Assembly: GCA_026394195.1 (NCBI GenBank)
Contig: JAPKYS010000023.1
Coordinates: 468,621 to 532,620 of the forward strand
DNA length: 64,000 nt
Origin: a bacterium
GTDB taxonomy: Bacteria; Electryoneota; B3-LCP
Direction of reading: 5' to 3'
A program made the position numbers and the translations under genes. The notes under the pieces were generated by a model. The model worked only from the letters and a program-made list of their open reading frames with translations, was not told where the DNA came from and did not search any database. The first letter of the stretch is position 1. Every line of letters starts with the position of its first letter. Positions 1,454 through 52,551 of this stretch are shown one piece after another.

Positions 1454-3661
1454 TTAATTCTGCTGAAGCGACAGTGATATTCGCCACTCCCGCAGGGGTG
1501 TCGGAGCAGCATCGACAATGCGATAGGATTGATTGAATAGATTGGTTACGTCGAAACGGCAAGTCAATATCACCTGCTTTCGGTTCAGTGAGAAATCCTG
1601 CCATAGCCCGAAATCCCAAACCTGGTATGGTGATAAGGATTTGGTATTGGCTTCATTGGTAAACCTGCGGCTGACCCAGCGCGCCGTTGCCGTGAGATGA
1701 AGGTACCTGAGGTTCTGCTCCAAGGTAAAAACGGTGTTGTTTACCGGCCGGTAGGGCAATAATCTGCCGTCGGTGTTCGGCTCGTTTGACTGATTGATCG
1801 CATGCATCCAGCGGTGAGTCAGAAAGATATTGTGGGCCCAGTCGCCTTTTCCCAATTGATATTTCCAGATATACTCGATTCCAAAAATACGAGCTTTGCT
1901 TAAATTCAATGGTTTCCACCGATTGTCGAAATCAAGGCGCCAGTAGATCAGGTCCCAAATTTTCCGATCAAAATAGCTGACGCCGAATTCTGCAGACTTG
2001 TATCCCAGAGATGCTGCGATTTCACGATTCTCGGCTCTTTCAGGCTTCAAGTTGGGGTTCCCTTGCGCTTGCAGATCTTCCTGCCAGAATAATGAGTTAA
2101 AAGACGGCAGCCGAAAAGCGCCAGCAGATTCACCGCGCAGCGCAGCCCAGAAGATCTTTCCAGTTTTGACCTCAACCCCAAATCGAGGATAAATAAACAC
2201 TTGCCCGCCGCTGTAGAGATCCGTGCGCACACCGCCGAAGAGACCGGTGTTCACGGGTAGATTCAACTCTTGCAATGGGTTTCCCTGCGCCTGAAAATAA
2301 CCGAATTCATGCAATCGCTCAGCATAACCACCCAAAAGATCAGGTGACCAGAGTCGCTCCAGTCTCGCTCCCGTGCCGAAATTGAGATTCGTCCGTGATT
2401 CGCCCCCCCGACTCCAATCCAGAGAACCGCTGTAAACTTCACCTCGCAAGCTGGAGTTTTTATAAAGCAATGGATACTGTGAACCGTAATCAGTGATACT
2501 ATTCAGACGATAACTCTCACCATGAAGAGTCACTCGAGGCCGGTACCAATTCTCAGCGCCCTTTAGTGAGACATTAAATTCCTGATGATCAGTGGTGGTG
2601 GTGGATTCGTGGACAATTTCAGGCAGAGGCAGATAGTCGGGGTTCTGTCTGCTGGACATGTTTCTGCGATAACTTAGTTCAAGCACGCCCGGTGGATTCA
2701 ATTTAAGGGTCAGGTAATCACGTTGATATTCAGCGTTACTCCTGATCAAGATCTCACCAATGCTGCGCGTGAACAACTCCAAACCATCGTCGGGGACCAC
2801 TCGATACGGATATTTGCCGGTTCCTTCCTGATGCTCGTACATGCTCAGGAATCGCCAATTGGAAACATTCCTGCCGAGGAGAATGCTTCCTGTCTTGTCT
2901 CCATAGTCGGAGTATCCTGTCTTGACCGTCATCCGGTTTCGACCCGGATAAAGAGTAATAATATTTATCACACCTCCAATCGCTTGAGCACTCAGGCTTG
3001 ATGGAGCCTGGGGATAGACTTCGATTTGTTGGATTTCCGACAATGATACCTGTGACAGATCCGCCGTACCATCGCCTGACTCGTTGATGGGGCGCCCGTC
3101 GACTAACACTAAAACCTGGTCGCTGTTGCTGCCGCGCAGGGTTACGCTGCGCTTCCCACCCGGAGATCCATCCGAAGTAATGGTCGCCAGACCATTCTCT
3201 TCGAGGATTTTTCCCAAATCGCTGGTTCCGGTACGGGTGAGAACGTTTCGTCCCAATACGGTGCCGCCGGAAAGATACCCTGCTGAAGGCAGCGCCTTAG
3301 TTTCCACGGTCGTCTCGTCATCCATTTCCAGCACGATAGGAGACAATCGGAACTCCAGGGAAAGTGGGGTATCCGCAGCAAGCAAAACGACTCGACGGGT
3401 GATGGTTTTGTAGCCGATATGCGTTATTTTTAAATCGCAGCCACCCATCGGCAGATTATAAAAATAAAAACGCCCTTCTGCATCGGCTGCAACGCCGAAG
3501 GGCGAACCGTCGATCACGACGTCTGCGCCGGGAAGAGGCAACCCGGTTCGATCATCAAGCACCAGTCCGGAGAGATTTAACAGATTCTGGGCAGCGGCGC
3601 TACAGGCAAAGGCGAGTGCCACACCGATGAATACCAACAATGATTTCATGCGATACGTCAT
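1454..3661 (-). CDS. TonB-dependent outer membrane receptor with an N-terminal carboxypeptidase-regulatory-like domain
   Basis: Signal peptide followed by a CarbopepD-like beta-sandwich (GLVLDDRTGLPLPGADVVIDGS...), then plug-domain motifs (VTLRG, VLVDGRP, IEVYPQAPSSL...AIGGVINIIT) and a 22-strand barrel length. Confidence 0.9.
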   Translation of the reverse strand: MTYRMKSLLVFIGVALAFACSAAAQNLLNLSGLVLDDRTGLPLPGADVVIDGSPFGVAADAEGRFYFYNLPMGGCDLKITHIGYKTITRRVVLLAADTPLSLEFRLSPIVLEMDDETTVETKALPSAGYLSGGTVLGRNVLTRTGTSDLGKILEENGLATITSDGSPGGKRSVTLRGSNSDQVLVLVDGRPINESGDGTADLSQVSLSEIQQIEVYPQAPSSLSAQAIGGVINIITLYPGRNRMTVKTGYSDYGDKTGSILLGRNVSNWRFLSMYEHQEGTGKYPYRVVPDDGLELFTRSIGEILIRSNAEYQRDYLTLKLNPPGVLELSYRRNMSSRQNPDYLPLPEIVHESTTTTDHQEFNVSLKGAENWYRPRVTLHGESYRLNSITDYGSQYPLLYKNSSLRGEVYSGSLDWSRGGESRTNLNFGTGARLERLWSPDLLGGYAERLHEFGYFQAQGNPLQELNLPVNTGLFGGVRTDLYSGGQVFIYPRFGVEVKTGKIFWAALRGESAGAFRLPSFNSLFWQEDLQAQGNPNLKPERAENREIAASLGYKSAEFGVSYFDRKIWDLIYWRLDFDNRWKPLNLSKARIFGIEYIWKYQLGKGDWAHNIFLTHRWMHAINQSNEPNTDGRLLPYRPVNNTVFTLEQNLRYLHLTATARWVSRRFTNEANTKSLSPYQVWDFGLWQDFSLNRKQVILTCRFDVTNLFNQSYRIVDAAPTPLREWRISLSLQQN

Positions 3662-3680
3662 AGTCTCGCACTAAAAAAAA

Positions 3681-5540
3681 TCAATTGGTAAAGTTCCAGG
3701 ATACTCCCCATACTTCCTCCTTGTGCATCATGGTGAATCCTGGTAAGAGTTCATAGTTTCGATCCAGGATATTGTTGACACCCCAGAAAATCTGCACACC
3801 GTACAATCTGGCGCTGATCCTCGCCGATAAGACGAAATCGTTAGGATGCGCCTCCCATCCTCCGGGCACCGGCAGCCAACGTTGTCCCCAGAAATCCCCC
3901 CAGACCTTGAAGCGCAAATCGAGATGGTTTTGGAACGCAGGTTGTCGGTACTGCGTCCAAACGTGCCAGATCACTTCCGGGAAAATTCTCTGTTCTCCCG
4001 AATGAAGCGGCAGATATGAACCTGTCCCTCCGATTTCGATTTGATCTGAAGGTTTTAATCCGACCGAACCTAAAATCCCTTTGGAATCCAGCGAATTGGA
4101 ATTAATCGACCGGATGACATTGCCGTCGACCACCCAGGATATCTGATCCTCTACTCGATAGTGCGCAACGGCAAGATTGCAATCGACGAATCGAGACTTA
4201 ATTTCGCCGCCGAACGAAGCATTGGAATAAGTTTCATTTTTCAAGCTGTGCGTACCCTGTACGTCGAGGCTGGGGTATTGGAAGAAAACGGGGCTATAGG
4301 GCCAATAGTGATCGCTGTGTGTGTAGTCGGCGGACGCTTCCAATCGGGAAGGATTTTGCTGGTGTTGGGATGCCGCTAAAAATAACCTGATCCCTTGATA
4401 GACAGTGAAATCCGTTCGCACGCCCAGATGGCGAGCCGGTGTGAAATCGTCTGATAAATCCAACCCCAAAAAGGTCTGAACGTCCAGAATATCCGAAGCT
4501 CTCCAGACCAAAAAGTTGCTCAGACCGCCGAAGGACGTCGTAGACCAGTTTTGCGATTTCAGACGCCAGCGCGCCAGAGCAGCCTGCAACTTGAGTTCAC
4601 CATCAAACCTGGTTCGACCATATGGGCTTTGCGTGATGACACCCAGCTCTTCCCAGAGATCTTCGCCATTGCTGCCATAGGTATCAATCTGTTGCACGCC
4701 GTAGCCGCGCACAGCATGGGATCGCCAATGCAGCACAGCATCGGTCTCATAGCGTTCGCGCTTGTAGCTTGCAGTCTTGAAGGAAACCTGGGCATTCCTC
4801 CGGTTCTGAGTGACACCCCACCACCCCCAGACCCGGTTTGAATTTTCACTCATCCTGATGCTGTCATGCCAAACGACTTCAGCGCGAAGATTGAGTCCGT
4901 AACCTGCGCTGTGGTACTGTCTCCCGCCATACGTGGATACCTCTCCCCCACCATTCAAGCCAACAGCCGGCGTAATTTTCTCCGCCAGATCGAAATCAAT
5001 ATTTCCCAGTCCGTAGTACCCATCCCGTGCGCCAACATGACTCGATGGGGGTGAATTCTGCAACTCTTTTAATACCACGTCCATCTTCGCACCCGGCGCT
5101 TGAATCGCAAAAGGCTGAAAAATTATATTCGAGAGCGAATGAGGTGGTACCCACCCCAACTCAGGTGATCCTAAAAGAAAATCCCGCAACTCTCTACCCT
5201 TAAAATTGATGCTTAAAACGTCCGGCGACCAACCAAAAAACAAAGCGCGATCCGGTTGAGCATATCCTGCTTGATCCAAGGGGTAGAATCCGGGCATGAC
5301 TCTGATCAGATCGCCGAATTCCTCATAGTCGAAATCAGCGATTTCATCGACGTCAAGTCCAAGCCGAAAAGGTGTCGAATCATTTACGGAGTTGATCAGC
5401 GTACTTTGTGAGCTGTCGATCATGGTGGAATCAGGAATACTTGACTCTAAAATTTGTGAACTGGCTATAACAGCCTGGAAACACAAGAGCGCCAGACACC
5501 AGATTGTACAGTGATCGGGTGTGAATTTGGGATATTTCAT
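3681..5540 (-). CDS. Hypothetical secreted / outer-membrane-associated protein (619 aa)
   Basis: Signal peptide (MKYPKFTPDHCTIWCLALLCFQAVIASSQ) and beta-rich, Trp/Tyr/Gly-rich composition. It sits between the BtuM-like gene and the TonB-dependent receptor in an apparently co-transcribed unit. The start overlaps the upstream gene by 4 nt. Confidence 0.5.
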   Translation of the reverse strand: MKYPKFTPDHCTIWCLALLCFQAVIASSQILESSIPDSTMIDSSQSTLINSVNDSTPFRLGLDVDEIADFDYEEFGDLIRVMPGFYPLDQAGYAQPDRALFFGWSPDVLSINFKGRELRDFLLGSPELGWVPPHSLSNIIFQPFAIQAPGAKMDVVLKELQNSPPSSHVGARDGYYGLGNIDFDLAEKITPAVGLNGGGEVSTYGGRQYHSAGYGLNLRAEVVWHDSIRMSENSNRVWGWWGVTQNRRNAQVSFKTASYKRERYETDAVLHWRSHAVRGYGVQQIDTYGSNGEDLWEELGVITQSPYGRTRFDGELKLQAALARWRLKSQNWSTTSFGGLSNFLVWRASDILDVQTFLGLDLSDDFTPARHLGVRTDFTVYQGIRLFLAASQHQQNPSRLEASADYTHSDHYWPYSPVFFQYPSLDVQGTHSLKNETYSNASFGGEIKSRFVDCNLAVAHYRVEDQISWVVDGNVIRSINSNSLDSKGILGSVGLKPSDQIEIGGTGSYLPLHSGEQRIFPEVIWHVWTQYRQPAFQNHLDLRFKVWGDFWGQRWLPVPGGWEAHPNDFVLSARISARLYGVQIFWGVNNILDRNYELLPGFTMMHKEEVWGVSWNFTN

Positions 5541-6082
5541 GACACGCTCCAGCTTTTGATCCGATTCAGGAAAATGGGTATGATCATGGCAAAGATCATC
5601 GCGTTTGTTGTTATATGCATGGCTGCGAAGGGTATCCCCAGGATCAGAGTAAGCCGGGTCTGTTCCGCGCTGAATCCGGCTGAAATCGGGAAGGAAAGAT
5701 TGGTAAGGAGATCGAAAATGGTGGTCAGAAACGCTCCGAGCGCTCCTAAAAAGAAATGGTAATACCAGGATCCGGATGAGAAATATCTGATTGTGGTGAT
5801 TTTAGAGGCGATTAAACCTCCACAGAAGCCTGTCAGGGTCATGGAGAGCGCCTGTGCGATCAGAAGCGGCGGAGGCGGAAATCCCATCGGGTTGAAGGTC
5901 GAATAGATGGTCTCAGCGACACAGCCGATAATGGAGCCATACAACGGTCCCATGAGTATGCCTGAGAAGAAAATTCCGGCGGTGATCATCTCCAGATTGG
6001 GCACGGGCAGGAATAGATATCCGAGGACCACACAGGTCGCGGTCAACAGCGCGGCGCGAGTTATTTTGTGATGTCTTTTCAA
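5537..6082 (-). CDS. ECF-transporter S-component-like small membrane protein, putative cobalamin transporter (BtuM/CbrT-like)
   Basis: 181 aa with about 5-6 transmembrane helices and a conserved-looking Cys in the GCVAET motif. It lies directly downstream of a cobalamin riboswitch. The start is TTG at 6080-6082. Confidence 0.55.
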   Translation of the reverse strand: MKRHHKITRAALLTATCVVLGYLFLPVPNLEMITAGIFFSGILMGPLYGSIIGCVAETIYSTFNPMGFPPPPLLIAQALSMTLTGFCGGLIASKITTIRYFSSGSWYYHFFLGALGAFLTTIFDLLTNLSFPISAGFSAEQTRLTLILGIPFAAMHITTNAMIFAMIIPIFLNRIKSWSVS

Positions 6083-6087
6083 GATTT

Positions 6088-6285
6088 CTGCAAAAAGAAA
6101 AGGAGCCGAGCAGGCTCCTGAGAGTAGTTCTTCTTAGAACGAACAGAAGAACGTTCTTAGCGCCTTCCCGCGAAGGCTCTCGATTTCCCGTCAGGTGTCT
6201 GGCTCATGCTCCCGAGGAGCAATCACAGTTGCGGGGCAGCGTCGGAATTACACCGTCTTCCCTGATAGTTTCACGGGGAAGTAAT
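6088..6285 (-). promoter_or_regulatory. Cobalamin (B12) riboswitch with an intrinsic-terminator expression platform
   Basis: The minus strand reads cttccccgtgaaactatcaGGGAAgacGGTGtAAtTCCgacgctgCCCCGCAACTGTgattgc...GAGCCAGACACCTGAC (B12 box). It ends in the terminator hairpin ggagcctgctcggctcc plus ttttcttttt, immediately 5' of the 5537-6082 CDS. Confidence 0.8.
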
Positions 6286-6296
6286 TTTAACGAATT

Positions 6297-6644
6297 CTAA
6301 CGGTTGGTCTTCTCCTTGATTCTGGCGGCTTTGCCATGGAGATCACTCAGATAATACAGCTTGGCGCGGCGTACTTTTCCACGTCGTAGCGTCTCGATTT
6401 GGGCAATCCGAGGTGAATGCAACGGGAAGATGCGTTCCACGCCGACTCCGGCAGAAATCTTTCGAACTGTGAACATTTCGTTGATCCCAGCCCCACTCCG
6501 CTGCAAGACGGTCCCCTGGAAGACCTGGATGCGCTCCTTGTCCCCTTCGATGACGCGTACGTGAACTTTGATGGTATCCCCAGCTTTGAATTCAGGTAAG
6601 TCAGTCTTCAATTGCGGAGAAGTAGATAAATGTAGTTCCCGCAT
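6297..6644 (-). CDS. rplS: 50S ribosomal protein L19
   Basis: 115 aa with conserved L19 sequence ([22 protein letters not shown]...). It lies in the conserved rpsP-rimM-trmD-rplS cluster. Confidence 0.95.
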
Positions 6645-8988: not shown

Positions 8989-10320
8989 TCAATTTAACGG
9001 AAAGGGGAATTTGGGTAATTTTCCGGGATGACCTTTGAACTTGGTCATTTGCCGCATCATGGTTCTTAGCTGCTCATATTGTTTAAGCAGTTGGTTGACG
9101 TCCTGGACGTTGGTTCCCGATCCTCTGGCGATCCTTTTTCTGCGGCTGCCGTTGATGATATGCGGTTTGCGGCGTTCCTGTTGCGTCATGGAACAGATGA
9201 TCGCCTCAGTCCGCTCCATCTCATTTTCATCGATCTTCATATCCTTGAACTGCCTGCCGATTCCTGGGATCATCCCGATTAATTGATCTAATGGTCCCAT
9301 TTTACGAATCTGGCGAAGCTGTTCCAGGAAATCTTCCAGGCTGAATTCCTGTTTGGCGATTTTTTGAGCGAGACGCTCAGCCTGTTCCTGATCGACGTTT
9401 TCCTGGGCTTTTTCAACCAGGCTGACAATATCGCCCATGCCCAAGATGCGGGAAGCCATTCGGTCCGGATGGAATTCCTCGAGTGCATCCGGTTTCTCTC
9501 CCGTTCCGATATAAACAATCGGTCTGCCGGTTACTGAACGAATTGAAAGCGCAGCGCCACCCTTGGCGTCACCGTCCAATTTGGTCAGGACAACGCCAGT
9601 AAAATCCAGTCGTTCCAAGAATTCCTGAGCCGCTCTGACCGCATCCTGTCCCGCCATTCCGTCAGCGACATAGAGAATTTCTGCGGGATGGATGGCTTCT
9701 CGAATTCGCGAAAGTTCAGCCATCATCCCGGTGTCGATGTGCAGACGGCCTGCCGTATCCAAAAGAACAACGTCCCGACCGGTGCGACGCGCTTCGGCAA
9801 GCCCATCCTTGCAGATGGATACGGGGTCAAGGATTCCCGGAGCCCACACGGGCAGATCCAGTTGACGACCCAACTGTTGCAATTGTTCAATGGCTGCCGG
9901 GCGGTATACATCGGCTGCGACCAGCAGAGGGAACCTGCCATTTCGTCTCAGACGCAGCCCCAGTTTGGCATTGAACGTGGTTTTTCCCGATCCCTGCAAT
10001 CCTACGATCATCACCACAACCGGCGGCAGTCCGGAAAGGTCAAGTTTCCGATTTCCACCACCCAGAACGTTCACCAGCTCATCGTAAATGATTTTAATAA
10101 CCTGCTGTCCGGGAGTTATGCTGCGGAGCACATCCTGCCCCTGAGCCTTATCCTGAACGCCGGTGATAAAATCTTTGACAACCTTCAGATTGACGTCTGC
10201 TTCCAGCAATATCCTGCGAACTTCACGCATCGATTCGCGGATATTCTCATCGGTAATGGACCCTTGTCCGCGAAGCTGCCGAAAGAATTTTTCAAATCGC
10301 TGAGTCAGCTGGTCGAACAT
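8989..10320 (-). CDS. ffh: Signal recognition particle protein Ffh
   Basis: SRP54 N, G (GLQGSGKTT, DTAGR) and M domains. 443 aa. Confidence 0.95.
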   Translation of the reverse strand: MFDQLTQRFEKFFRQLRGQGSITDENIRESMREVRRILLEADVNLKVVKDFITGVQDKAQGQDVLRSITPGQQVIKIIYDELVNVLGGGNRKLDLSGLPPVVVMIVGLQGSGKTTFNAKLGLRLRRNGRFPLLVAADVYRPAAIEQLQQLGRQLDLPVWAPGILDPVSICKDGLAEARRTGRDVVLLDTAGRLHIDTGMMAELSRIREAIHPAEILYVADGMAGQDAVRAAQEFLERLDFTGVVLTKLDGDAKGGAALSIRSVTGRPIVYIGTGEKPDALEEFHPDRMASRILGMGDIVSLVEKAQENVDQEQAERLAQKIAKQEFSLEDFLEQLRQIRKMGPLDQLIGMIPGIGRQFKDMKIDENEMERTEAIICSMTQQERRKPHIINGSRRKRIARGSGTNVQDVNQLLKQYEQLRTMMRQMTKFKGHPGKLPKFPFPLN

Positions 10321-39244: not shown

Positions 39245-40297
39245 CTATTTCTGGTGTTGTTTACTTTCAGTTAAAAAAGAAAAATCATAGGGAGGGCGAT
39301 GCACTCCCAGTTCGGTGATTATTGCCGCGACCAGCTCATGTGGAGTCACGTCGAATGCCGGATTAAAAGTCTTTATACCTTCCGGCGCTGTGCGTGTTGC
39401 GCCGAAACCGGTTACCTCATAGTCCGGTCGTTCTTCGATGGGAATTTGGTCTCCCGATGTGATTTTAGGATCAACCGTTGACGTAGGCGCAGCAACATAG
39501 AAGGGCACGTCGTGGTGCTTCGCCAGCAGAGCCACGGTATAGGTTCCAATTTTATTGGCAACGTCCCCGTTGGCGGCAATTCGGTCCGAACCCACAATCA
39601 CCGCATTCACCCAACCCTTTTTCATAACGACGGCAGCCATATTGTCGCAAATCAGGGTGACGTCTACACCATTCTGTTTTAGCTCCCAGGAGGTCAGTCG
39701 TGCTCCCTGCAACAGCGGACGGGTCTCGTCTGCGAATACTTTTATTTTCTTGCCCTGCTCCTGAGCGACGTAGATTGGAGCCAATGCCGTTCCCATCCCA
39801 CCGGTTGCCAGTGAACCGGCGTTGCAGTGTGTAAGGATCGTCATTCCATCATGCAGGAGTTCAGCACCATGCTCTCCGATACGGCGGCACATGGCTTCAT
39901 CCTCTTGATGAATGCTTACGGCCTCAGCAATTAACTTCTGTATCGTCGGGGCAATTTCATGATTTGCCGCGAGAACCCTCTCCATCCGATCAATCGCCCA
40001 GAACAGATTCACCGCAGTTGGGCGGGTGGAGCGTAATTCGTTCATAATTCTTCGCAGTTCGCGGGCAAAGTGCGAAAAGTCATCACGCGGCAGTGAGAGC
40101 GCCCCAATGACTACCCCATAAGCTCCCGCAACTCCAATCGCAGGCGCTCCGCGCACTGCCAATCTTTTTATGGCGTCGCACATCACGCGATAATCATCAG
40201 TGACGATATATTCCAAGCTGCCGGGCAGTTTGGTCTGCTCGATCAACCTCACTTTTCGATCGCTTGCCAGCCACTCGATGGTTTTAAAGTTGAGCAT
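39245..40297 (-). CDS. mtnA: S-methyl-5-thioribose-1-phosphate isomerase (eIF-2B alpha/beta/delta family)
   Basis: VRGAPAIGVAGAYG motif. The start was chosen at ATG 40297 (MLNFKTIEW...), which aligns with MtnA N-termini. The ORF-track GTG at 40384 is less likely. Confidence 0.75.
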   Translation of the reverse strand: MLNFKTIEWLASDRKVRLIEQTKLPGSLEYIVTDDYRVMCDAIKRLAVRGAPAIGVAGAYGVVIGALSLPRDDFSHFARELRRIMNELRSTRPTAVNLFWAIDRMERVLAANHEIAPTIQKLIAEAVSIHQEDEAMCRRIGEHGAELLHDGMTILTHCNAGSLATGGMGTALAPIYVAQEQGKKIKVFADETRPLLQGARLTSWELKQNGVDVTLICDNMAAVVMKKGWVNAVIVGSDRIAANGDVANKIGTYTVALLAKHHDVPFYVAAPTSTVDPKITSGDQIPIEERPDYEVTGFGATRTAPEGIKTFNPAFDVTPHELVAAIITELGVHRPPYDFSFLTESKQHQK

Positions 40298-40443
40298 TTC
40301 CTGTTCATCCGTTTGCTTCGCCCTTTGGCTGTCGATCTTCCGCCGCCGAATTCGGGGGCGGAACTTTAAATATAAAAAAATCACCTATCCAAGTCAAGGA
40401 AAAGCTCAGAAAAGGTGAAATCACGTCATCGGCTTGTGCTCGT

Positions 40444-41343
40444 TTAAAACCGTGTCATTTCTGCCAACTTCCGATACCGCGTTTCGATATCTTCCATTTT
40501 CAGGTCCTTCAGGCGATCAATGGAAAACTGCTCAACTGAAAACGAGGCAGTAACCGTCCCGTAAGCAATCGCCTTGCGAAAGGATTCCATGGAGATATCG
40601 TTGCATTTTGCCAGGTAGCCCACCATACCTCCGGCGAAGGAATCGCCGGCGCCGGTCGGATCATACAGACTTTCTAATGGATATGCTGGAATTGCAAAGA
40701 TCTCGTCGCCGGCTAACACGAAGGCGCCATGCTCACCTTTTTTAATGATCACGATCTTCGGACCCAGATCAGTAACTTTCCGAGCTGCGCGAATTAGATT
40801 GATTTCTCCGGTGATCTGTGTGGCTTCCTGATCATTCAGAATGACTGCATCGACCTTTTTCATGACCTCCTTCAGGGGAGCCAAGGCGGTGTCAATCCAG
40901 AGATTCATGGTATCCAGCATCACCAGACGCGGATTTCTGGTCTGCTCCAGCACCTGAAGCTGCAACTCGGGATGAATGTTCGCAAGAAAGACGAAAGGAG
41001 TGTCCCGATACGCCTCCGGCAATTTAGGCGAAAAGGTCTCAAAGACGTTTAAATGAGTAAAAAGTGTATCACGGTGATTCATATTCTCATGATAGACTCC
41101 ACCCCAGCGAAAAGTTTTGCCTTTGGCGATTTCCAATCCCGTGAGATCCACACCGCGTTTGATCAGGAAATCTAATTGGTCCAGGGGGAAATCATCCCCA
41201 ACAATACCGACGATTTTTACCGGTGCAAAGTAACTTGCCGCCGCAGAAAAATAAAATGCAGAACCACCAAGTGTATCATTGACTTCACCGAATGGCGTTT
41301 TAACCGAATCTAAGGCTGTCGAGCCGACTACCAGTACACTCAT
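40444..41343 (-). CDS. PfkB-family carbohydrate/nucleoside kinase
   Basis: Ribokinase-like fold motifs (GGSAFY, DPTGAGDSFAGG). 299 aa. Confidence 0.8.
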   Translation of the reverse strand: MSVLVVGSTALDSVKTPFGEVNDTLGGSAFYFSAAASYFAPVKIVGIVGDDFPLDQLDFLIKRGVDLTGLEIAKGKTFRWGGVYHENMNHRDTLFTHLNVFETFSPKLPEAYRDTPFVFLANIHPELQLQVLEQTRNPRLVMLDTMNLWIDTALAPLKEVMKKVDAVILNDQEATQITGEINLIRAARKVTDLGPKIVIIKKGEHGAFVLAGDEIFAIPAYPLESLYDPTGAGDSFAGGMVGYLAKCNDISMESFRKAIAYGTVTASFSVEQFSIDRLKDLKMEDIETRYRKLAEMTRF

Positions 41344-49576: not shown

Positions 49577-50176
49577 TCAGATTCCTTTATCCCGCCGGCT
49601 CTTTAAAAACTCGACCCATGCTGCCAGCGCTCTTCCCCGATGAGATATTTCATTCTTTTCTTCCAAGGACAACTCAGCCAGAGTTTTCCCCTTCTCGGGT
49701 ATGAAAAAAACTGGATCGTACCCAAAACCATTATTTCCGGATGGGGTCTGACTGATTAATCCATCAATCCGCCCCTGAAACAGGTTGACGTCACCATCCT
49801 GAACAAACGCGATGACACATCGAAACCTTGCCTGACGCTTTCCGAGGGGGACGCCAGCCATTTCCATGATTAGCCTATCCACGTTATCCTGGTAGGTGGC
49901 CTGAGGACCAGCGTAACGCGCAGAATAGATTCCGGGAGCTCCACCTAAAGCATCAACTTCAAGACCGGTGTCATCCGCCAGGGTTGGCAGATGGGTGATA
50001 CGATGCAGCTCCAGGCCTTTTTTTGCTGCATTCTCTTCCAGGGTTTCGCCGTCTTCATCTACTTCCGGCAAGTCCGGAAAATCGCAGGGTGTCAGGATTT
50101 CAATGTCGAGATCCTGCACTTTTTCGCGAATTTCTTTCGCTTTGTCTTTATTCCGGGATGCCAGCAGTATCTTCAT
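49577..50176 (-). CDS. rdgB: dITP/XTP pyrophosphatase (RdgB/Ham1)
   Basis: Ham1 motifs (LASRNKDK, FGYDP). The start was set at ATG 50176 (MKILLAS...). Confidence 0.9.
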   Translation of the reverse strand: MKILLASRNKDKAKEIREKVQDLDIEILTPCDFPDLPEVDEDGETLEENAAKKGLELHRITHLPTLADDTGLEVDALGGAPGIYSARYAGPQATYQDNVDRLIMEMAGVPLGKRQARFRCVIAFVQDGDVNLFQGRIDGLISQTPSGNNGFGYDPVFFIPEKGKTLAELSLEEKNEISHRGRALAAWVEFLKSRRDKGI

Positions 50177-50255
50177 AGTCCGAACGAAAAGGGCAACCAC
50201 AGTGTCCGGGAGGTTGCCATCGGGTTATCATTTCAAAGTATTTGAAAGCTGACGC

Positions 50256-50537
50256 TCAAGAACGCTGGTTGTACAATTCACTGCGATCAACGATACCCAC
50301 GATCGCCGCGTCAACCGGCGTCAGCAGAGGTTCAGGAAAACTAAGCGAGGCTTCGCGGGAGGTTACGTAGAATACGATTTCCCCCGGACCGGCTCCCACC
50401 GTATCAACTGCCACGATGGCGCGCCCCATCTTGCGACCCTGCTCGGTCAGAGGCTGAATCAATTGCATTTTACTGCCATTCAGATGCGGATCCTTGACGG
50501 TCGCCCAGATGGTGCCGACTACTTTAGCCAGGTTCAC
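50256..50537 (-). CDS. Bacterial microcompartment vertex protein (EutN/CcmL/PduN family, BMC-P)
   Basis: 93 aa with VVGTIWAT...AVDTVGAGPGEIV...PVDAAIVGIVD, a classic EutN_CcmL pattern. Confidence 0.85.
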   Translation of the reverse strand: MNLAKVVGTIWATVKDPHLNGSKMQLIQPLTEQGRKMGRAIVAVDTVGAGPGEIVFYVTSREASLSFPEPLLTPVDAAIVGIVDRSELYNQRS

Positions 50538-50833
50538 TTCAGGTCAGCCTCCCACTCGGACAACGGCAGTTCGACGTCTAACCGATCGACGATTGCCATG
50601 ATGACGGCATCTACGGGCTTATCCCTGGTGATCCAGGTCAACCGCCCGGAAGAACCTTGGGCGATCAGAACAATTTCGCCTACACCGGCTCCTACAGAAT
50701 CGACAGCGACGACGATGTTGTCCAAGGGTTTATAATCCGTATCTACCGCTCGCACGATCTGGAATTTCATTCCTTCCAGTTTCTCATCCTTGCGCGTGGC
50801 CCAGACTGTACCGATGACGCGACCTAACAGCAT
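50534..50833 (-). CDS. Bacterial microcompartment vertex protein (EutN/CcmL/PduN family, BMC-P), second paralog
   Basis: 99 aa with VIGTVWAT...VAVDSVGAGVGEIVLIAQGSSGR...PVDAVIMAIVD. It overlaps the downstream paralog by 4 bp. Confidence 0.85.
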   Translation of the reverse strand: MLLGRVIGTVWATRKDEKLEGMKFQIVRAVDTDYKPLDNIVVAVDSVGAGVGEIVLIAQGSSGRLTWITRDKPVDAVIMAIVDRLDVELPLSEWEADLK

Positions 50834-50854
50834 TGATGTACCTGCAATGGATTA

Positions 50855-52039
50855 TCAATTGTTCTGCGGTTGGATCAATTTCCAGAAACTTTTCCCCGAT
50901 CCGGTTCCTGTAACTCCGAAATAATCAGCGATGGTAGCTGCGAGGTCAGCGAATGTATCGCGGCAGCCGAGGTTTGTGTTGCTCCTCAGCTTCTTCCCAT
51001 AAATCAGGATAGGCACGTATTCACGGGAATGATCCGTAGAAGGTGTGGTCGGATCGCAGCCATGGTCTGCTGTCAGAACTAAAACGTCATCCTCACTCAG
51101 GTTCGCCAGAATTTCAGGCAGGAATAGATCCACCTCCCGCAAACCGGAATAATAACCCGCCACGTCGTTGCGATGCCCCCACATCATATCAAAATCGACC
51201 AGGTTGGTGAAGATAAAACCTCTGCGCTTACTCTTGATAGCTTCAAGAGTCTCTTCCAGACCCTGACGATTGGATTTCGTATGAATCGCTTCAGTAATCC
51301 CCTGACCGGCAAATAGATCCTCGATCTTACCAATCCCCAATACCTCTTTCCCAGCAAGACACAGATGATCAAGAATCGTACGATTGGGCGGTGGTAAGGA
51401 AAAATCTTTGCGGTTGCTAGTCCTTATGAAACTGCCTTCAGGTCCAATAAAAGGGCGGGCGATAATCCTGCCGACCGCATCCTGCCCTGTCATGATCCCG
51501 CGCGCGATCTGACAGATCTGATAAAGTTTTACGACTGGAATAATTTCTTCGTGAGAAGCGATCTGCAGAACTGAGTCCGCGGAAGTATACAAGATCAGTT
51601 TTCCTGTGCGGATATGTTCGGAACCCAATCTCTGAATGATCTCAGTACCGGATGCAGCAATATTCCCGATGAAGTGACGTCCTGAGGCAGTTTCAAGTTG
51701 ATCCACGATCCGCTGGGGGAATCCGCCGGGATAAGTCGGTTGAGGCTGCCGGGCGATCAAACCCATCAATTCCCAATGCCCGTAGATGCTATCCTTACCC
51801 GGAGATTGTTCTGCCATATAACCATATGACGCCTGCGCAGCTACACTCCCGGAAAGTCCTCGTATCGGTCTGATTTTACCCAATCCAAGGCGTTCCAAAT
51901 TCGGTAAGAGCAAACCACCGACGGCTTCAGCCAAATTTCCGAGAGTATTTGATCCCAGGTCGCCATATTGGGCAGCATCTGGAAGTTCCCCCATCCCGAC
52001 GCTATCCAGAACTACTACGATAAAGCGGCCGGCCGCCAA
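50855..52039 (-). CDS. deoB: Phosphopentomutase
   Basis: Alkaline-phosphatase-superfamily metal-binding motifs (VVLDSVG, TADHGCDPT), full-length DeoB similarity. Confidence 0.9.
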   Translation of the reverse strand: MAAGRFIVVVLDSVGMGELPDAAQYGDLGSNTLGNLAEAVGGLLLPNLERLGLGKIRPIRGLSGSVAAQASYGYMAEQSPGKDSIYGHWELMGLIARQPQPTYPGGFPQRIVDQLETASGRHFIGNIAASGTEIIQRLGSEHIRTGKLILYTSADSVLQIASHEEIIPVVKLYQICQIARGIMTGQDAVGRIIARPFIGPEGSFIRTSNRKDFSLPPPNRTILDHLCLAGKEVLGIGKIEDLFAGQGITEAIHTKSNRQGLEETLEAIKSKRRGFIFTNLVDFDMMWGHRNDVAGYYSGLREVDLFLPEILANLSEDDVLVLTADHGCDPTTPSTDHSREYVPILIYGKKLRSNTNLGCRDTFADLAATIADYFGVTGTGSGKSFWKLIQPQNN

Positions 52040-52041
52040 AT

Positions 52042-52242
52042 TTAGTTACCCAGCACTTCCGCGCTGTTGCACTTGCAGACAGCTTGAATACGACGCTGAA
52101 AGCGATATCCGCCGCTCGCCCCCTGCTGAGTGGGTGAAATCACCCGGATATGAGTGACTGGAGTATCGCAGACGGGGCACTTATGCAGACCGCTCGATTG
52201 TGCTTTGGCGACTTTGTCGCTGAAGGTTTGTTGCTTTGCCAT
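52042..52242 (-). CDS. Small hypothetical zinc-ribbon protein
   Basis: 66 aa with CPVC...CKC. It lies immediately upstream of deoB on the same strand. Confidence 0.4.
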   Translation of the reverse strand: MAKQQTFSDKVAKAQSSGLHKCPVCDTPVTHIRVISPTQQGASGGYRFQRRIQAVCKCNSAEVLGN

Positions 52243-52444: not shown

Positions 52445-52492
52445 TTCTCTTACCCTGTGACGTAAGTCCAGTTAATTATAGGAATCGCTATA

Positions 52493-52521
52493 ATATAATA
52501 AAAAATTACTACCGAAATCAA
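52493..52521 (-). promoter_or_regulatory. Sigma-70-like promoter (TTGATT-17-TTATAT) upstream of the structured leader and zinc-ribbon-deoB operon
   Basis: Minus-strand hexamers TTGATT (52521-52516) and TTATAT (52498-52493). An additional TATAAT lies at 52480-52475. Confidence 0.35.
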
Positions 52522-52551
52522 TAAAAAAACCGCCTAAACTTAGTCAGGCGG
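52522..52551 (-). terminator. Rho-independent terminator after the anti-sigma factor gene
   Basis: Minus strand CCGCC-tgactaagttta-GGCGG followed by TTTTTTT. Confidence 0.6.

What the first reader, a model, noticed from the sequence alone, without database searches (positions are those of the whole stretch)
50256..52242. Tandem translationally coupled BMC vertex (EutN/CcmL) genes embedded beside deoB, with no shell hexamer genes in the window
Two adjacent ORFs (93 and 99 aa, 4-bp overlap) carry the unmistakable EutN/CcmL pentamer signature (VIGTVWAT...VAVDSVGAGVGE...PVDAVI.AIVD). They lie between rdgB and phosphopentomutase, in a long co-oriented housekeeping operon. No BMC-H/BMC-T shell genes or signature enzymes occur within at least 14 kb on either side. 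Sugar-phosphate-utilising (SPU-type) microcompartment loci reported in several candidate phyla centre on deoxyribose-phosphate metabolism. This pair next to deoB may therefore be a satellite locus of such a compartment, or a non-canonical use of BMC-P proteins.
Basis: partly seen in the sequence, partly recalled or inferred. Interest (0 to 1): 0.7.

Follow-up and report, generated by a model that had tools for sequence, protein, structure and literature searches.

The report
Scattered microcompartment vertex genes beside deoB
Two real genes for the five-sided corner proteins of a bacterial protein organelle sit next to a deoxyribose-phosphate enzyme gene, and they fit an already catalogued class of "fragmented" microcompartments whose shell genes are scattered around the genome.

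Summary
Window 50534-50833(-) (99 aa, P1) and 50256-50537(-) (93 aa, P2) overlap by GTGA. Both are full-length PF03319 proteins whose models match only BMC-P pentamers. They follow deoB, and the 64 kb holds no PF00936, DeoC or RpiB gene.

They are old paralogs (41% identity), not a recent duplication. The pair recurs in all 80 related loci from LCP-89, Zixibacteria, Calditrichaeota, Ignavibacteria, Rhodothermales, Kryptonia, Chlorobiota and Planctomycetota, and none has a BMC-H gene within 10 kb. In 60 of the 80, deoB lies within 3 kb upstream on the same strand.

This matches the "FRAG" microcompartments of Sutter et al. 2021, most closely FRAG3 (Calditrichaeota, LCP-89). In a MAG whose P1 is 86% identical, a third BMC-P lies beside a bona fide deoC. 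In Ca. Uabimicrobium the three orthologs are interleaved with rpiB, deoC and a nucleoside phosphorylase.

Best reading: two of three vertex paralogs of a fragmented, probably deoxyribose-phosphate-processing compartment. This is a new member of a known kind. The repeated linkage to deo genes is a modest functional clue. I could not test whether the source genome has BMC-H genes.

The parts
50534..50833 (-). P1, a BMC-P (vertex pentamer) protein of 99 aa. It is the highly conserved paralog, probably the 'green/viridian3' clade member of the BMC-P triplet.
   Evidence: PF03319 at 100.7 bits. The best PDB sequence hit is 5v74, the HO-shell BMC-P, at E 6.6e-25. The AlphaFold model has pLDDT 87, and all 47 significant Foldseek PDB hits are BMC-P proteins, including 53% identity to the HO BMC-P. 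Identity to orthologs in 80 loci is 62-89%.
50256..50537 (-). P2, a BMC-P protein of 93 aa. It has a GTG start that overlaps the P1 stop (GTGA). It is the less conserved paralog, probably the grey or orange clade member.
   Evidence: PF03319 at 98.5 bits. It is 41% identical to P1. The model has pLDDT 81, and all 46 significant Foldseek hits are BMC-P proteins. It follows P1 in all 80 related loci, directly except in the three Planctomycetota loci, where rpiB lies between them, at 43-87% identity. GGGAGG lies 10 nt before the GTG.
50855..52039 (-). deoB, phosphopentomutase, which interconverts (deoxy)ribose-1-phosphate and (deoxy)ribose-5-phosphate. Its stop lies 21 nt upstream of P1. It has no terminal extension.
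   Evidence: NCBIfam NF003766 at 519.5 bits (cut-off 256), covering residues 4-387 of 394. It lies within 3 kb upstream of P1, co-oriented, in 60 of 80 related loci.
52042..52242 (-). A 66-aa zinc-ribbon-like protein (CPxC...CKC) with no family match. It is the first gene of the apparent transcription unit, and its stop lies 2 nt before the deoB start.
   Evidence: No Pfam or NCBIfam match. An HMM of the family finds it directly upstream of deoB in the window's clade and in L012, directly upstream of P1 in Kryptonia, and about 0.8 kb upstream of P1 in one Ignavibacteria MAG (L077).
52492..52551 (-). A terminator-like hairpin (52551-52530) followed by a promoter-like site (52521-52492). Both lie in the 338-bp gap upstream of the 66-aa ORF and probably mark the start of the unit.
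   Evidence: Consensus scan. Site counts across the region are at chance level, so this rests on position only. Genes downstream are separated by -4 to 55 nt as far as mnmA.
49577..50200 (-). rdgB (XTP/dITP pyrophosphatase), the next gene in the same co-oriented run. It is a neighbour only in the window's own clade and is probably not part of the compartment.
   Evidence: NCBIfam NF011397 at 237 bits. It follows P2 only in the nine closest loci that extend past P2 (L002-L008, L012 and the Logan contig L001), not in Ignavibacteria, Rhodothermales or the other groups.

Best explanation
P1 and P2 are two of the three paralogous vertex (BMC-P) proteins of a 'fragmented-locus' bacterial microcompartment. 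This is the FRAG class of Sutter et al. 2021, most like FRAG3 of Calditrichaeota and LCP-89.

In this class the shell genes are not gathered in one operon. They are scattered singly or in pairs among housekeeping genes. Here the P1-P2 pair is transcribed with deoB and is translationally coupled. By analogy with close relatives, the third BMC-P sits next to deoC elsewhere in the genome, and the hexamer (BMC-H) genes lie at further sites.

The likely job of the compartment is the SPU-like one:
1. DeoB in the cytosol turns deoxyribose-1-phosphate from nucleoside breakdown into deoxyribose-5-phosphate.
2. DeoC splits that into glyceraldehyde-3-phosphate and acetaldehyde.
3. The shell confines the aldehyde.

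Shown: gene identity, fold, orthology of the three BMC-P groups, conserved deoB linkage, and the P3-deoC linkage in a relative.

Inferred: that the source genome holds the missing parts, that the proteins cap a closed shell, and the substrate.
For: **Identity and fold.** Both are PF03319 proteins. P1's best PDB hit is the HO shell pentamer, E 6.6e-25 and 53% identity. Both models match only BMC-P structures, TM about 0.75-0.8.

**Conservation.**
- The P1-P2 pair is present in all 80 loci returned from eight or more phylum-level lineages.
- None of them has PF00936-like sequence within 10 kb.
- P1 is more conserved (group medians 68-86%) than DeoB (49-70%) or P2 (43-81%).

**Published class.**
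[quoted passage not shown] FRAG3 has DeoC beside a BMC-P.
- The LCP-89 B3_LCP locus has the same gene order as the window, with P1 at 85% identity.
- The catalogue's 'viridian3' clade holds the 99-aa FRAG1 BMC-P of Ignavibacteriae and Rubricoccus, and also the HO main-locus 96-aa BMC-P.
- A catalogued Ignavibacteriae genome that carries that protein also has PF00936-type shell genes at distant locus tags.

**Third paralog.**
- P0260 lies on JAHJDJ010000011.1, the same assembly as L005, whose P1 is 86% identical to the window's. Its context is GlmM-type mutase, P3, DeoC (TIGR00126, 260 bits), GlgC.
- Accession series for P3 and for the P1 ortholog pair up in three assemblies.

**Independent arrangement.** In Ca. 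Uabimicrobium the order is P1 (72%), RpiB, P2, P3, DeoC, PNP_UDP_1 phosphorylase.
Against: - No BMC-H gene, third BMC-P, DeoC, aldehyde dehydrogenase or phosphotransacylase was seen in the source genome. Only 64 kb of a 622,682-bp contig was readable.
- DeoB and the relative's DeoC carry no terminal extension that could act as an encapsulation peptide. Sutter et al. found no encapsulation peptides in FRAG genomes.
- deoB adjacency is missing in Kryptonia, Chlorobiota, Planctomycetota and some Rhodothermales. Within the related FCB phyla it could partly reflect shared ancestry rather than selection.
- The colour-clade assignment of P1 is inferred. The stored part of the published tree does not hold the LCP-89 accession.
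- The pair sits in a long housekeeping run. That is unusual for a catabolic organelle, which is normally inducible.
Confidence: 0.65

Rival explanations
1. This is an ordinary satellite locus. The source genome has a conventional SPU (or other) main locus elsewhere, with BMC-H, BMC-P, DeoC, RpiB and an aldehyde dehydrogenase, and this pair merely adds extra vertex proteins.
For: All SPU loci carry a BMC-P triplet of the same clade pattern (PMC11585597). Satellite loci are common. Only about a tenth of the source contig could be read.
Against: The catalogued relatives (LCP-89, Calditrichaeota, Ignavibacteria) are FRAG types without a main locus. In a close relative the third BMC-P is itself isolated beside deoC, with no BMC-H within 10 kb. 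None of the 80 loci has BMC-H within 10 kb.
Confidence: 0.12
2. The pair belongs to a fragmented compartment with an unrelated substrate. The deoB adjacency would be inherited gene order with no functional meaning.
For: - deoB is absent next to the pair in Kryptonia, Chlorobiota and some Rhodothermales.
- Unrelated genes are inserted between deoB and P1: a PIN toxin module in Ignavibacteria, a transglutaminase-like protein in the LCP-89 clade and a histidine kinase in L009.
- The surrounding genes are housekeeping.
- FRAG1 is described as 'shell protein only' with unknown function.
Against: Downstream neighbours differ between phyla (rdgB, rpoD-like sigma factor, or opposite-strand genes), yet deoB stays upstream and co-oriented. 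Two other independent arrangements link the same orthologous groups to deoC, rpiB and a nucleoside phosphorylase.
Confidence: 0.15
3. The pair has a shell-independent role. P1 and P2 would work without a closed BMC shell, for example as a homo- or hetero-pentameric scaffold tied to pentose-phosphate or nucleotide metabolism, and some carriers would lack BMC-H altogether.
For: - There is no BMC-H in 64 kb or near any of the 80 related loci.
- The pair is embedded in a probably constitutive housekeeping run.
- P1 is more conserved than neighbouring enzymes.
Against: P1 is 53% identical to a pentamer seen capping a real shell, and it keeps the family's invariant positions. The catalogue reports BMC-H genes in FRAG1 and FRAG3 genomes. 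A P1-type carrier has PF00936 genes elsewhere in its genome. There is no positive evidence for any other partner.
Confidence: 0.07

Closest known systems
FRAG3 fragmented BMC (Sutter et al. 2021, Nat Commun 12:3809; Calditrichaeota, KSB1, LCP-89)
   Same: - The taxonomic neighbourhood matches. P1 is 83-85% identical to the Calditrichaeota and LCP-89 orthologs, with the same gene order.
- BMC-P genes lie away from any BMC-H gene.
- In a close relative a further BMC-P lies beside DeoC, which is the feature the catalogue uses to describe FRAG3.
   Different: The source genome's third BMC-P, DeoC and two BMC-H genes were not seen. The catalogue text does not mention deoB next to the pair (no 'phosphopentomutase' or '01676' in the text held).
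FRAG1 fragmented BMC (Ignavibacteria, Kryptonia, Rhodothermaeota, Chlorobi)
   Same: The P1-P2 pair is orthologous, at 62-80% identity for P1. It lies in a housekeeping run: S11, S4, RpoA, L17, EngB, GAF-GGDEF, DeoB, P1, P2, sigma-70.
   Different: The downstream neighbours differ (a sigma-70 factor and NlpC/P60 instead of rdgB, iscS, mnmA). A PIN-domain module is often inserted between deoB and P1. The 66-aa ORF is mostly absent.
FRAG5-like locus of Planctomycetota (Ca. Uabimicrobium amorphum)
   Same: It has the same three BMC-P orthologous groups: P1 at 72%, P2 at 43%, and P3 at 60% to the relative's P3. There is no BMC-H within 10 kb.
   Different: All three BMC-P genes sit together and are interleaved with RpiB, DeoC and a nucleoside phosphorylase. 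RpiB and DeoC carry N-terminal extensions of about 88 and 69 aa. There is no deoB.
SPU (sugar-phosphate utilisation) metabolosome
   Same: The proposed chemistry matches: deoxyribose-5-phosphate is cleaved by DeoC, and deoB makes the substrate, as noted in PMC11585597. It also has a BMC-P triplet.
   Different: SPU has a main locus with BMC-H or BMC-T, DeoC, RpiB and an aldehyde dehydrogenase. None of these is in the window.
Haliangium ochraceum shell pentamer (PDB 5V74 BMC-P)
   Same: It is the closest solved structure to P1: E 6.6e-25, 53% identity, TM about 0.8.
   Different: The HO protein is encoded in a main locus beside its BMC-H. P1 has an extra C-terminal tail of about 15 aa that is conserved only within its own clade.

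Membership tests
BMC-P / EutN_CcmL (PF03319) | Full-length match to the PF03319 domain above the gathering score | tested here: met
   P1 scores 100.7 bits and P2 98.5 bits against a cut-off of 25. Both cover profile positions 1-83 of 83.
BMC-P / EutN_CcmL (PF03319) | The small beta-barrel fold of CcmL, EutN and CsoS4 | tested here: met
   The models have pLDDT 87 and 81. All Foldseek PDB hits with E <= 0.001 (47 and 46) are BMC-P chains, TM 0.7-0.8.
BMC-P / EutN_CcmL (PF03319) | Forms pentamers that cap shell vertices | not testable with these tools
   Only monomer prediction is available. This needs multimer modelling or biochemistry.
BMC-P / EutN_CcmL (PF03319) | BMC-H (PF00936) genes occur in the same genome | not testable with these tools
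   None occurs in the 64-kb window. The rest of the 622,682-bp contig and of the MAG could not be read. A BMC-H homolog search returned only myxobacterial-type proteins. The literature reports BMC-H in FRAG1 and FRAG3 genomes.
CcmL or EutN proper (NCBIfam equivalogs) | Score above the equivalog cut-off | tested here: not met
   CcmL: 83 and 70 bits against a cut-off of 125. EutN: 48 and 47 against 118. CsoS4A/B are far below. So neither is a carboxysome protein or an Eut protein.
FRAG-type (fragmented) BMC, Sutter 2021 | Shell genes dispersed, with BMC-P genes not within about 12 genes of a BMC-H | tested here: met
   No PF00936-like sequence occurs in the whole window, which extends more than 40 genes to one side and 11 to the other. 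None occurs within 10 kb in 80 related loci.
FRAG-type (fragmented) BMC, Sutter 2021 | A BMC-P triplet: one green, one grey and one orange clade member | tested here: inconclusive
   Two distinct paralogs are in the window. The third orthologous group was found in a relative's assembly and in Uabimicrobium, but not in the source. P1 is inferred to be green/viridian3. The colours of P2 and P3 were not determined.
FRAG3 specifically | A DeoC/LacD aldolase next to a BMC-P | tested here: inconclusive
   Met in MAG JAHJDJ01, whose P1 is 86% identical: P3 is followed by DeoC at TIGR00126 260 bits. There is no DeoC in the window, and the source genome is otherwise unread.
SPU metabolosome | A main locus with BMC-H plus BMC-P together with DeoC (PF01791), RpiB (PF02502) and an aldehyde dehydrogenase | tested here: not met
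   None of these is in the window. This locus cannot be filed as an SPU main locus. An SPU-like mode of action remains plausible.

The most novel reading that the evidence does not exclude
The P1-P2 pair, and perhaps the whole triplet, may have a job beyond capping 12 vertices. It could form a hetero-pentamer or an open assembly that is expressed constitutively from the core genome and organises DeoB/DeoC-type pentose-phosphate enzymes. Under this reading some carriers would lack hexamer genes entirely. Nothing here excludes it, because the hexamer content of the source genome could not be read. The field itself regards the three conserved BMC-P paralogs as unexplained.
Probability: 0.07. Interest if true: 0.75.

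Novelty: new member of a known kind. Interest (0 to 1): 0.33.

Why it matters
FRAG compartments are widespread in Ignavibacteria, Calditrichaeota, Planctomycetes and many candidate phyla. Their catalogue describes them as enigmatic: the shell genes are scattered, there are few or no linked enzymes, and no encapsulation peptides were found.

The comparison made here adds one concrete clue. Across those phyla, each of the three conserved vertex paralogs is repeatedly found next to a deoxyribose-phosphate pathway gene:
- deoB beside P1-P2
- deoC beside P3
- rpiB, deoC and a nucleoside phosphorylase interleaved with all three in Planctomycetota

That points to an SPU-like role in scavenging nucleic acids. 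It also gives a testable hypothesis for cultivable carriers such as Melioribacter or Ignavibacterium.

The position of the pair is unusual too. It sits inside a core housekeeping run, beside ribosomal-protein genes, rpoA and a sigma-70 factor gene in Ignavibacteria. That would be odd for an inducible catabolic organelle and may bear on why three BMC-P paralogs are kept.

For the window itself the finding is an ordinary member of that class.

Tried and rejected
1. **Finding BMC-H in the source or a sister genome.**
   - A homolog search with the Haliangium BMC-H (sequence verified against 5DJB) returned 120 proteins at 82-97% identity. Those that carry names are myxobacterial.
   - No accession or contig-length fingerprint matched the source (MCX66..., 622,682 bp) or any sister assembly.
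2. **Locating the source contig.** The look-up of encoding contigs found only a 5.9-kb Logan contig from SRR20698647, not the NCBI contig.
3. **Colour-clade assignment by accession.** The LCP-89 ortholog A0A532UY17 is not in the stored, truncated part of the published BMC-P tree. The clade of P1 is therefore inferred.
4. **Reaching the FCB third paralog directly.** A search with the Uabimicrobium third BMC-P gave only 37 hits. One of them (P0260) happened to lie in a sister assembly. The source's own third paralog was not found.
5. **A riboswitch or other RNA element controlling the unit.** None was found.
6. **A nearby pentose-bisphosphate pathway.** An IF-2B-family gene lies beside a PfkB kinase at 39-41 kb. 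I rejected this idea because the IF-2B protein scores as methylthioribose-1-phosphate isomerase MtnA (473 bits; the R15P isomerase model scores below its cut-off).
7. **Recent tandem duplication.** Rejected: 41% identity and separate orthologous groups.
8. **Horizontally acquired island.** Nothing points that way. GC is 0.51 against 0.47-0.53 for the window, and strand bias is the same.
Full report
**What is in the sequence**

On the minus strand there is a tight, co-oriented run:
- a 66-aa ORF at 52042-52242
- deoB at 50855-52039
- P1 at 50534-50833 (99 aa)
- P2 at 50256-50537 (93 aa)
- rdgB at 49577-50200
- iscS
- mnmA

The gaps between consecutive genes are 2, 21, -4, 55, 7 and 9 nt. The P1/P2 junction is ...CTG AAG TGA with GTG AAC overlapping it (GTGA). 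A GGGAGG motif ends 10 nt before the GTG. This fits translational coupling.

A 338-bp gap lies upstream of the 66-aa ORF. It holds a terminator-like hairpin followed by a promoter-like site. Counts of such sites across the region are at chance level, so this reading rests on position alone.

**Identity of the two proteins**

Both match PF03319 over the whole profile, at 100.7 and 98.5 bits against a cut-off of 25. They score far below the NCBIfam equivalog cut-offs for CcmL, EutN and CsoS4. They are therefore BMC-P proteins of neither the carboxysome nor the Eut type.

P1's best solved relative is the pentamer of the intact Haliangium ochraceum shell (5V74), at E 6.6e-25. P2's best are GrpN and the same HO protein, at about 1e-13.

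AlphaFold models have pLDDT 87 and 81. By Foldseek they match only BMC-P chains among all significant PDB hits, with TM about 0.75-0.8. P1 is 53% identical to the HO pentamer.

P1 and P2 share 41% identity. They are old paralogs, not a recent duplication.

**Surroundings**

tblastn with four BMC-H proteins finds nothing in the 64 kb (best E 0.87), while EutN finds exactly the two genes. E. coli DeoC and RpiB find nothing in the window.

Pfam on every gene from 36.6 kb to the window end gives only housekeeping functions: uppS, mtnA, argS, rsfS, panBC, mnmA, iscS, rdgB, an ECF sigma/anti-sigma pair, holA, uppP, pgeF, glmS, guaA, surE and accD.

Nearly every called ORF is on the minus strand. GC content at the locus is the same as elsewhere in the window.

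**Source and relatives**

The exact P1 protein is MCX6640123.1, from an unclassified 'bacterium' MAG, on a contig of 622,682 bp. Only a 5.9-kb Logan copy of the locus could be fetched.

A scan of one genome per GTDB species with P1 gave 491 relatives. The best 80 loci come from LCP-89, Zixibacteria, Calditrichaeota, unclassified MAGs, Rhodothermales, Kryptonia, Chlorobiota, many Ignavibacteria/Melioribacteraceae, three Planctomycetota and one 'Chromatiales' MAG.

- In all 80 loci P1 is followed by P2.
- In none is there BMC-H-like sequence within 10 kb.
- deoB lies within 3 kb upstream on the same strand in 60 of the 80. Of the 20 without it, 6 have less than 3 kb of upstream sequence available.
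- Downstream neighbours differ by lineage: rdgB-iscS-mnmA in the window's clade, a sigma-70 factor, NlpC/P60 and fumarase in Ignavibacteria, and opposite-strand genes in Rhodothermales.
- Unrelated genes have been inserted between deoB and P1: a PIN module, a transglutaminase-like protein and a histidine kinase.
- Across taxon groups, median identity to the window is 68-86% for P1, 49-70% for DeoB and 43-81% for P2.

**What is already known**

Sutter et al. 2021 (PMC8217296) define 'FRAG' microcompartments. Their shell genes lie in up to six places. They have few or no linked enzymes and no detectable encapsulation peptides. [quoted passage not shown]

- FRAG1 is mainly found in Ignavibacteria, Kryptonia, Bacteroidetes, Chlorobi and Rhodothermaeota.
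- FRAG3 is found in Calditrichaeota, KSB1 and LCP-89. It has a DeoC aldolase next to a BMC-P and two BMC-H genes.

These are the same lineages as my 80 loci. The LCP-89 B3_LCP locus has the window's gene order, with P1 at 85% identity.

In the published BMC-P tree the 'viridian3' (green) clade contains 99-aa FRAG1 proteins of Ignavibacteriae and Rubricoccus, a 95-aa protein of an Ectothiorhodospiraceae MAG, and the HO main-locus 96-aa protein. P1's best solved relative is that HO protein, and P1's orthologs have those lengths and hosts. P1 is therefore most likely the green member, and P2 a grey or orange one. This is an inference, because the LCP-89 accession is not in the stored part of the tree.

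A catalogued Ignavibacteriae genome with a viridian3 protein also has EutS-, PduT- and EutL-type PF00936 genes at distant locus tags. Axen et al. 2014 had already noted seven BMC-P genes in five loci in Melioribacter roseus.

**The third paralog and the deo link**

A search with the third BMC-P of Ca. Uabimicrobium returned P0260. P0260 lies on JAHJDJ010000011.1. That is the same assembly as locus L005, where P1 is 86% identical to the window's.

Its context is an archaeal-type GlmM mutase, then P3 (91 aa), then DeoC (TIGR00126, 260 bits against a cut-off of 117), then GlgC. There is no BMC-H within 10 kb. The accession series of P0260 and of the P1 ortholog P0008 pair up in three assemblies.

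In Ca. Uabimicrobium amorphum, a complete genome, the order is:
- P1 (72% identical to the window's)
- RpiB with an 88-aa N-terminal extension
- P2
- P3
- DeoC with a 69-aa N-terminal extension
- a PNP_UDP_1 nucleoside phosphorylase

Pairwise identities define three orthologous groups:
- window P1 to Uabimicrobium P1: 72%
- window P2 to Uabimicrobium P2: 43%
- the relative's P3 to Uabimicrobium P3: 60%

The same three vertex paralogs are thus tied to deoxyribose-phosphate genes in three different arrangements.

The 2024 SPU study (PMC11585597) names deoB as the enzyme that makes the presumed SPU substrate. It also states that the reason for three BMC-P paralogs is unknown. No held paper links phosphopentomutase with BMC-P genes.

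**Interpretation**

The pair is best read as two of the three vertex proteins of a FRAG3-like fragmented compartment. Its chemistry is probably SPU-like:
1. Nucleoside phosphorylase produces deoxyribose-1-phosphate.
2. DeoB converts it to deoxyribose-5-phosphate.
3. DeoC cleaves that to acetaldehyde and glyceraldehyde-3-phosphate, with the aldehyde confined by the shell.

The gene identity, the fold, the orthology and the synteny are shown. The presence of the remaining parts in the source genome, actual shell capping and the substrate are inferred.

The main gap is that no hexamer gene could be looked for in the source genome.

Three rivals remain:
- a satellite of a conventional SPU main locus
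- a fragmented compartment of unrelated function, with deoB adjacent only by descent
- a shell-independent role for the pair, which is unlikely

**Verdict**

This is a real feature, correctly spotted. It belongs to a published class, so it counts as a new member of a known kind. The recurrent deoB/deoC linkage is a modest, testable clue to the function of FRAG compartments.

Noticed in passing
window 52042-52242 (-); also L015/L017/L018/L023/L025 about 9730-9936, L003, L004, L006, L007, L008, L012, L077: A conserved 65-70-aa zinc-ribbon-like protein (MAK..F.DKV.K...CP.CG...CKC..) with no Pfam or NCBIfam family. It sits directly upstream of deoB in the window's clade and in L012. In Kryptonia, where deoB is absent, it sits directly upstream of P1. 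In one Ignavibacteria MAG (L077) it lies about 0.8 kb upstream of P1. It could be a partner of the pair or just a neighbour.
   Followed up: partly
L043 10352-11062 and 11680-12549 (Ca. Uabimicrobium amorphum): The RpiB and DeoC encoded between the three BMC-P genes carry N-terminal extensions of about 88 and 69 aa ahead of their Pfam domains. These could be encapsulation peptides. The DeoC of the FCB-type relative (L082, 213 aa) has none.
   Followed up: no
L021-L081, Ignavibacteria loci, between deoB and P1: A roughly 130-aa PIN-domain protein is inserted between deoB and P1 in many Ignavibacteria. It is often preceded by a 60-95-aa ORF with no family match, which looks like a toxin-antitoxin pair. 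In the LCP-89 clade a 525-aa transglutaminase-like protein with a signal-like N-terminus occupies the same position (L003, L004, L005). The window has neither.
   Followed up: partly
L055 (MAG labelled 'uncultured Chromatiales', contig of 89 kb): This contig has Ignavibacteria-type gene order around the pair: GAF-GGDEF protein, PIN protein, P1, P2, sigma-70. The cause is either horizontal transfer of the block or a mis-binned contig. It may correspond to the single 'Proteobacterium' listed under FRAG1 in the catalogue.
   Followed up: no
Ignavibacteria loci, e.g. L030, L037, L059: The BMC-P pair lies in the core genome between the rpsK-rpsD-rpoA-rplQ cluster, engB and a GAF-GGDEF protein on one side and a 284-aa sigma-70 factor with regions 1.2-4 on the other. 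That sigma factor is possibly the primary one. This is an unusual setting for organelle shell genes.
   Followed up: partly
window 6173-6307 (-) and 1454-6082 (-): A cobalamin riboswitch (47 bits, gathering score 31.5) lies upstream of three genes: an ECF-S-component-like membrane protein, a 619-aa protein with no family match, and a TonB-dependent receptor with weak BtuB similarity. This looks like a B12 uptake operon.
   Followed up: partly
window 39245-41343 (-): An IF-2B-family isomerase lies next to a PfkB-family sugar kinase of unassigned specificity. The isomerase scores as methylthioribose-1-phosphate isomerase MtnA, not ribose-1,5-bisphosphate isomerase. This points to methionine salvage rather than a pentose-bisphosphate pathway.
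   Followed up: yes
window 1-64000: Almost all called genes (about 60 of 64 ORFs) are on the minus strand, and GC skew is negative throughout. This is a very long co-oriented housekeeping stretch.
   Followed up: no
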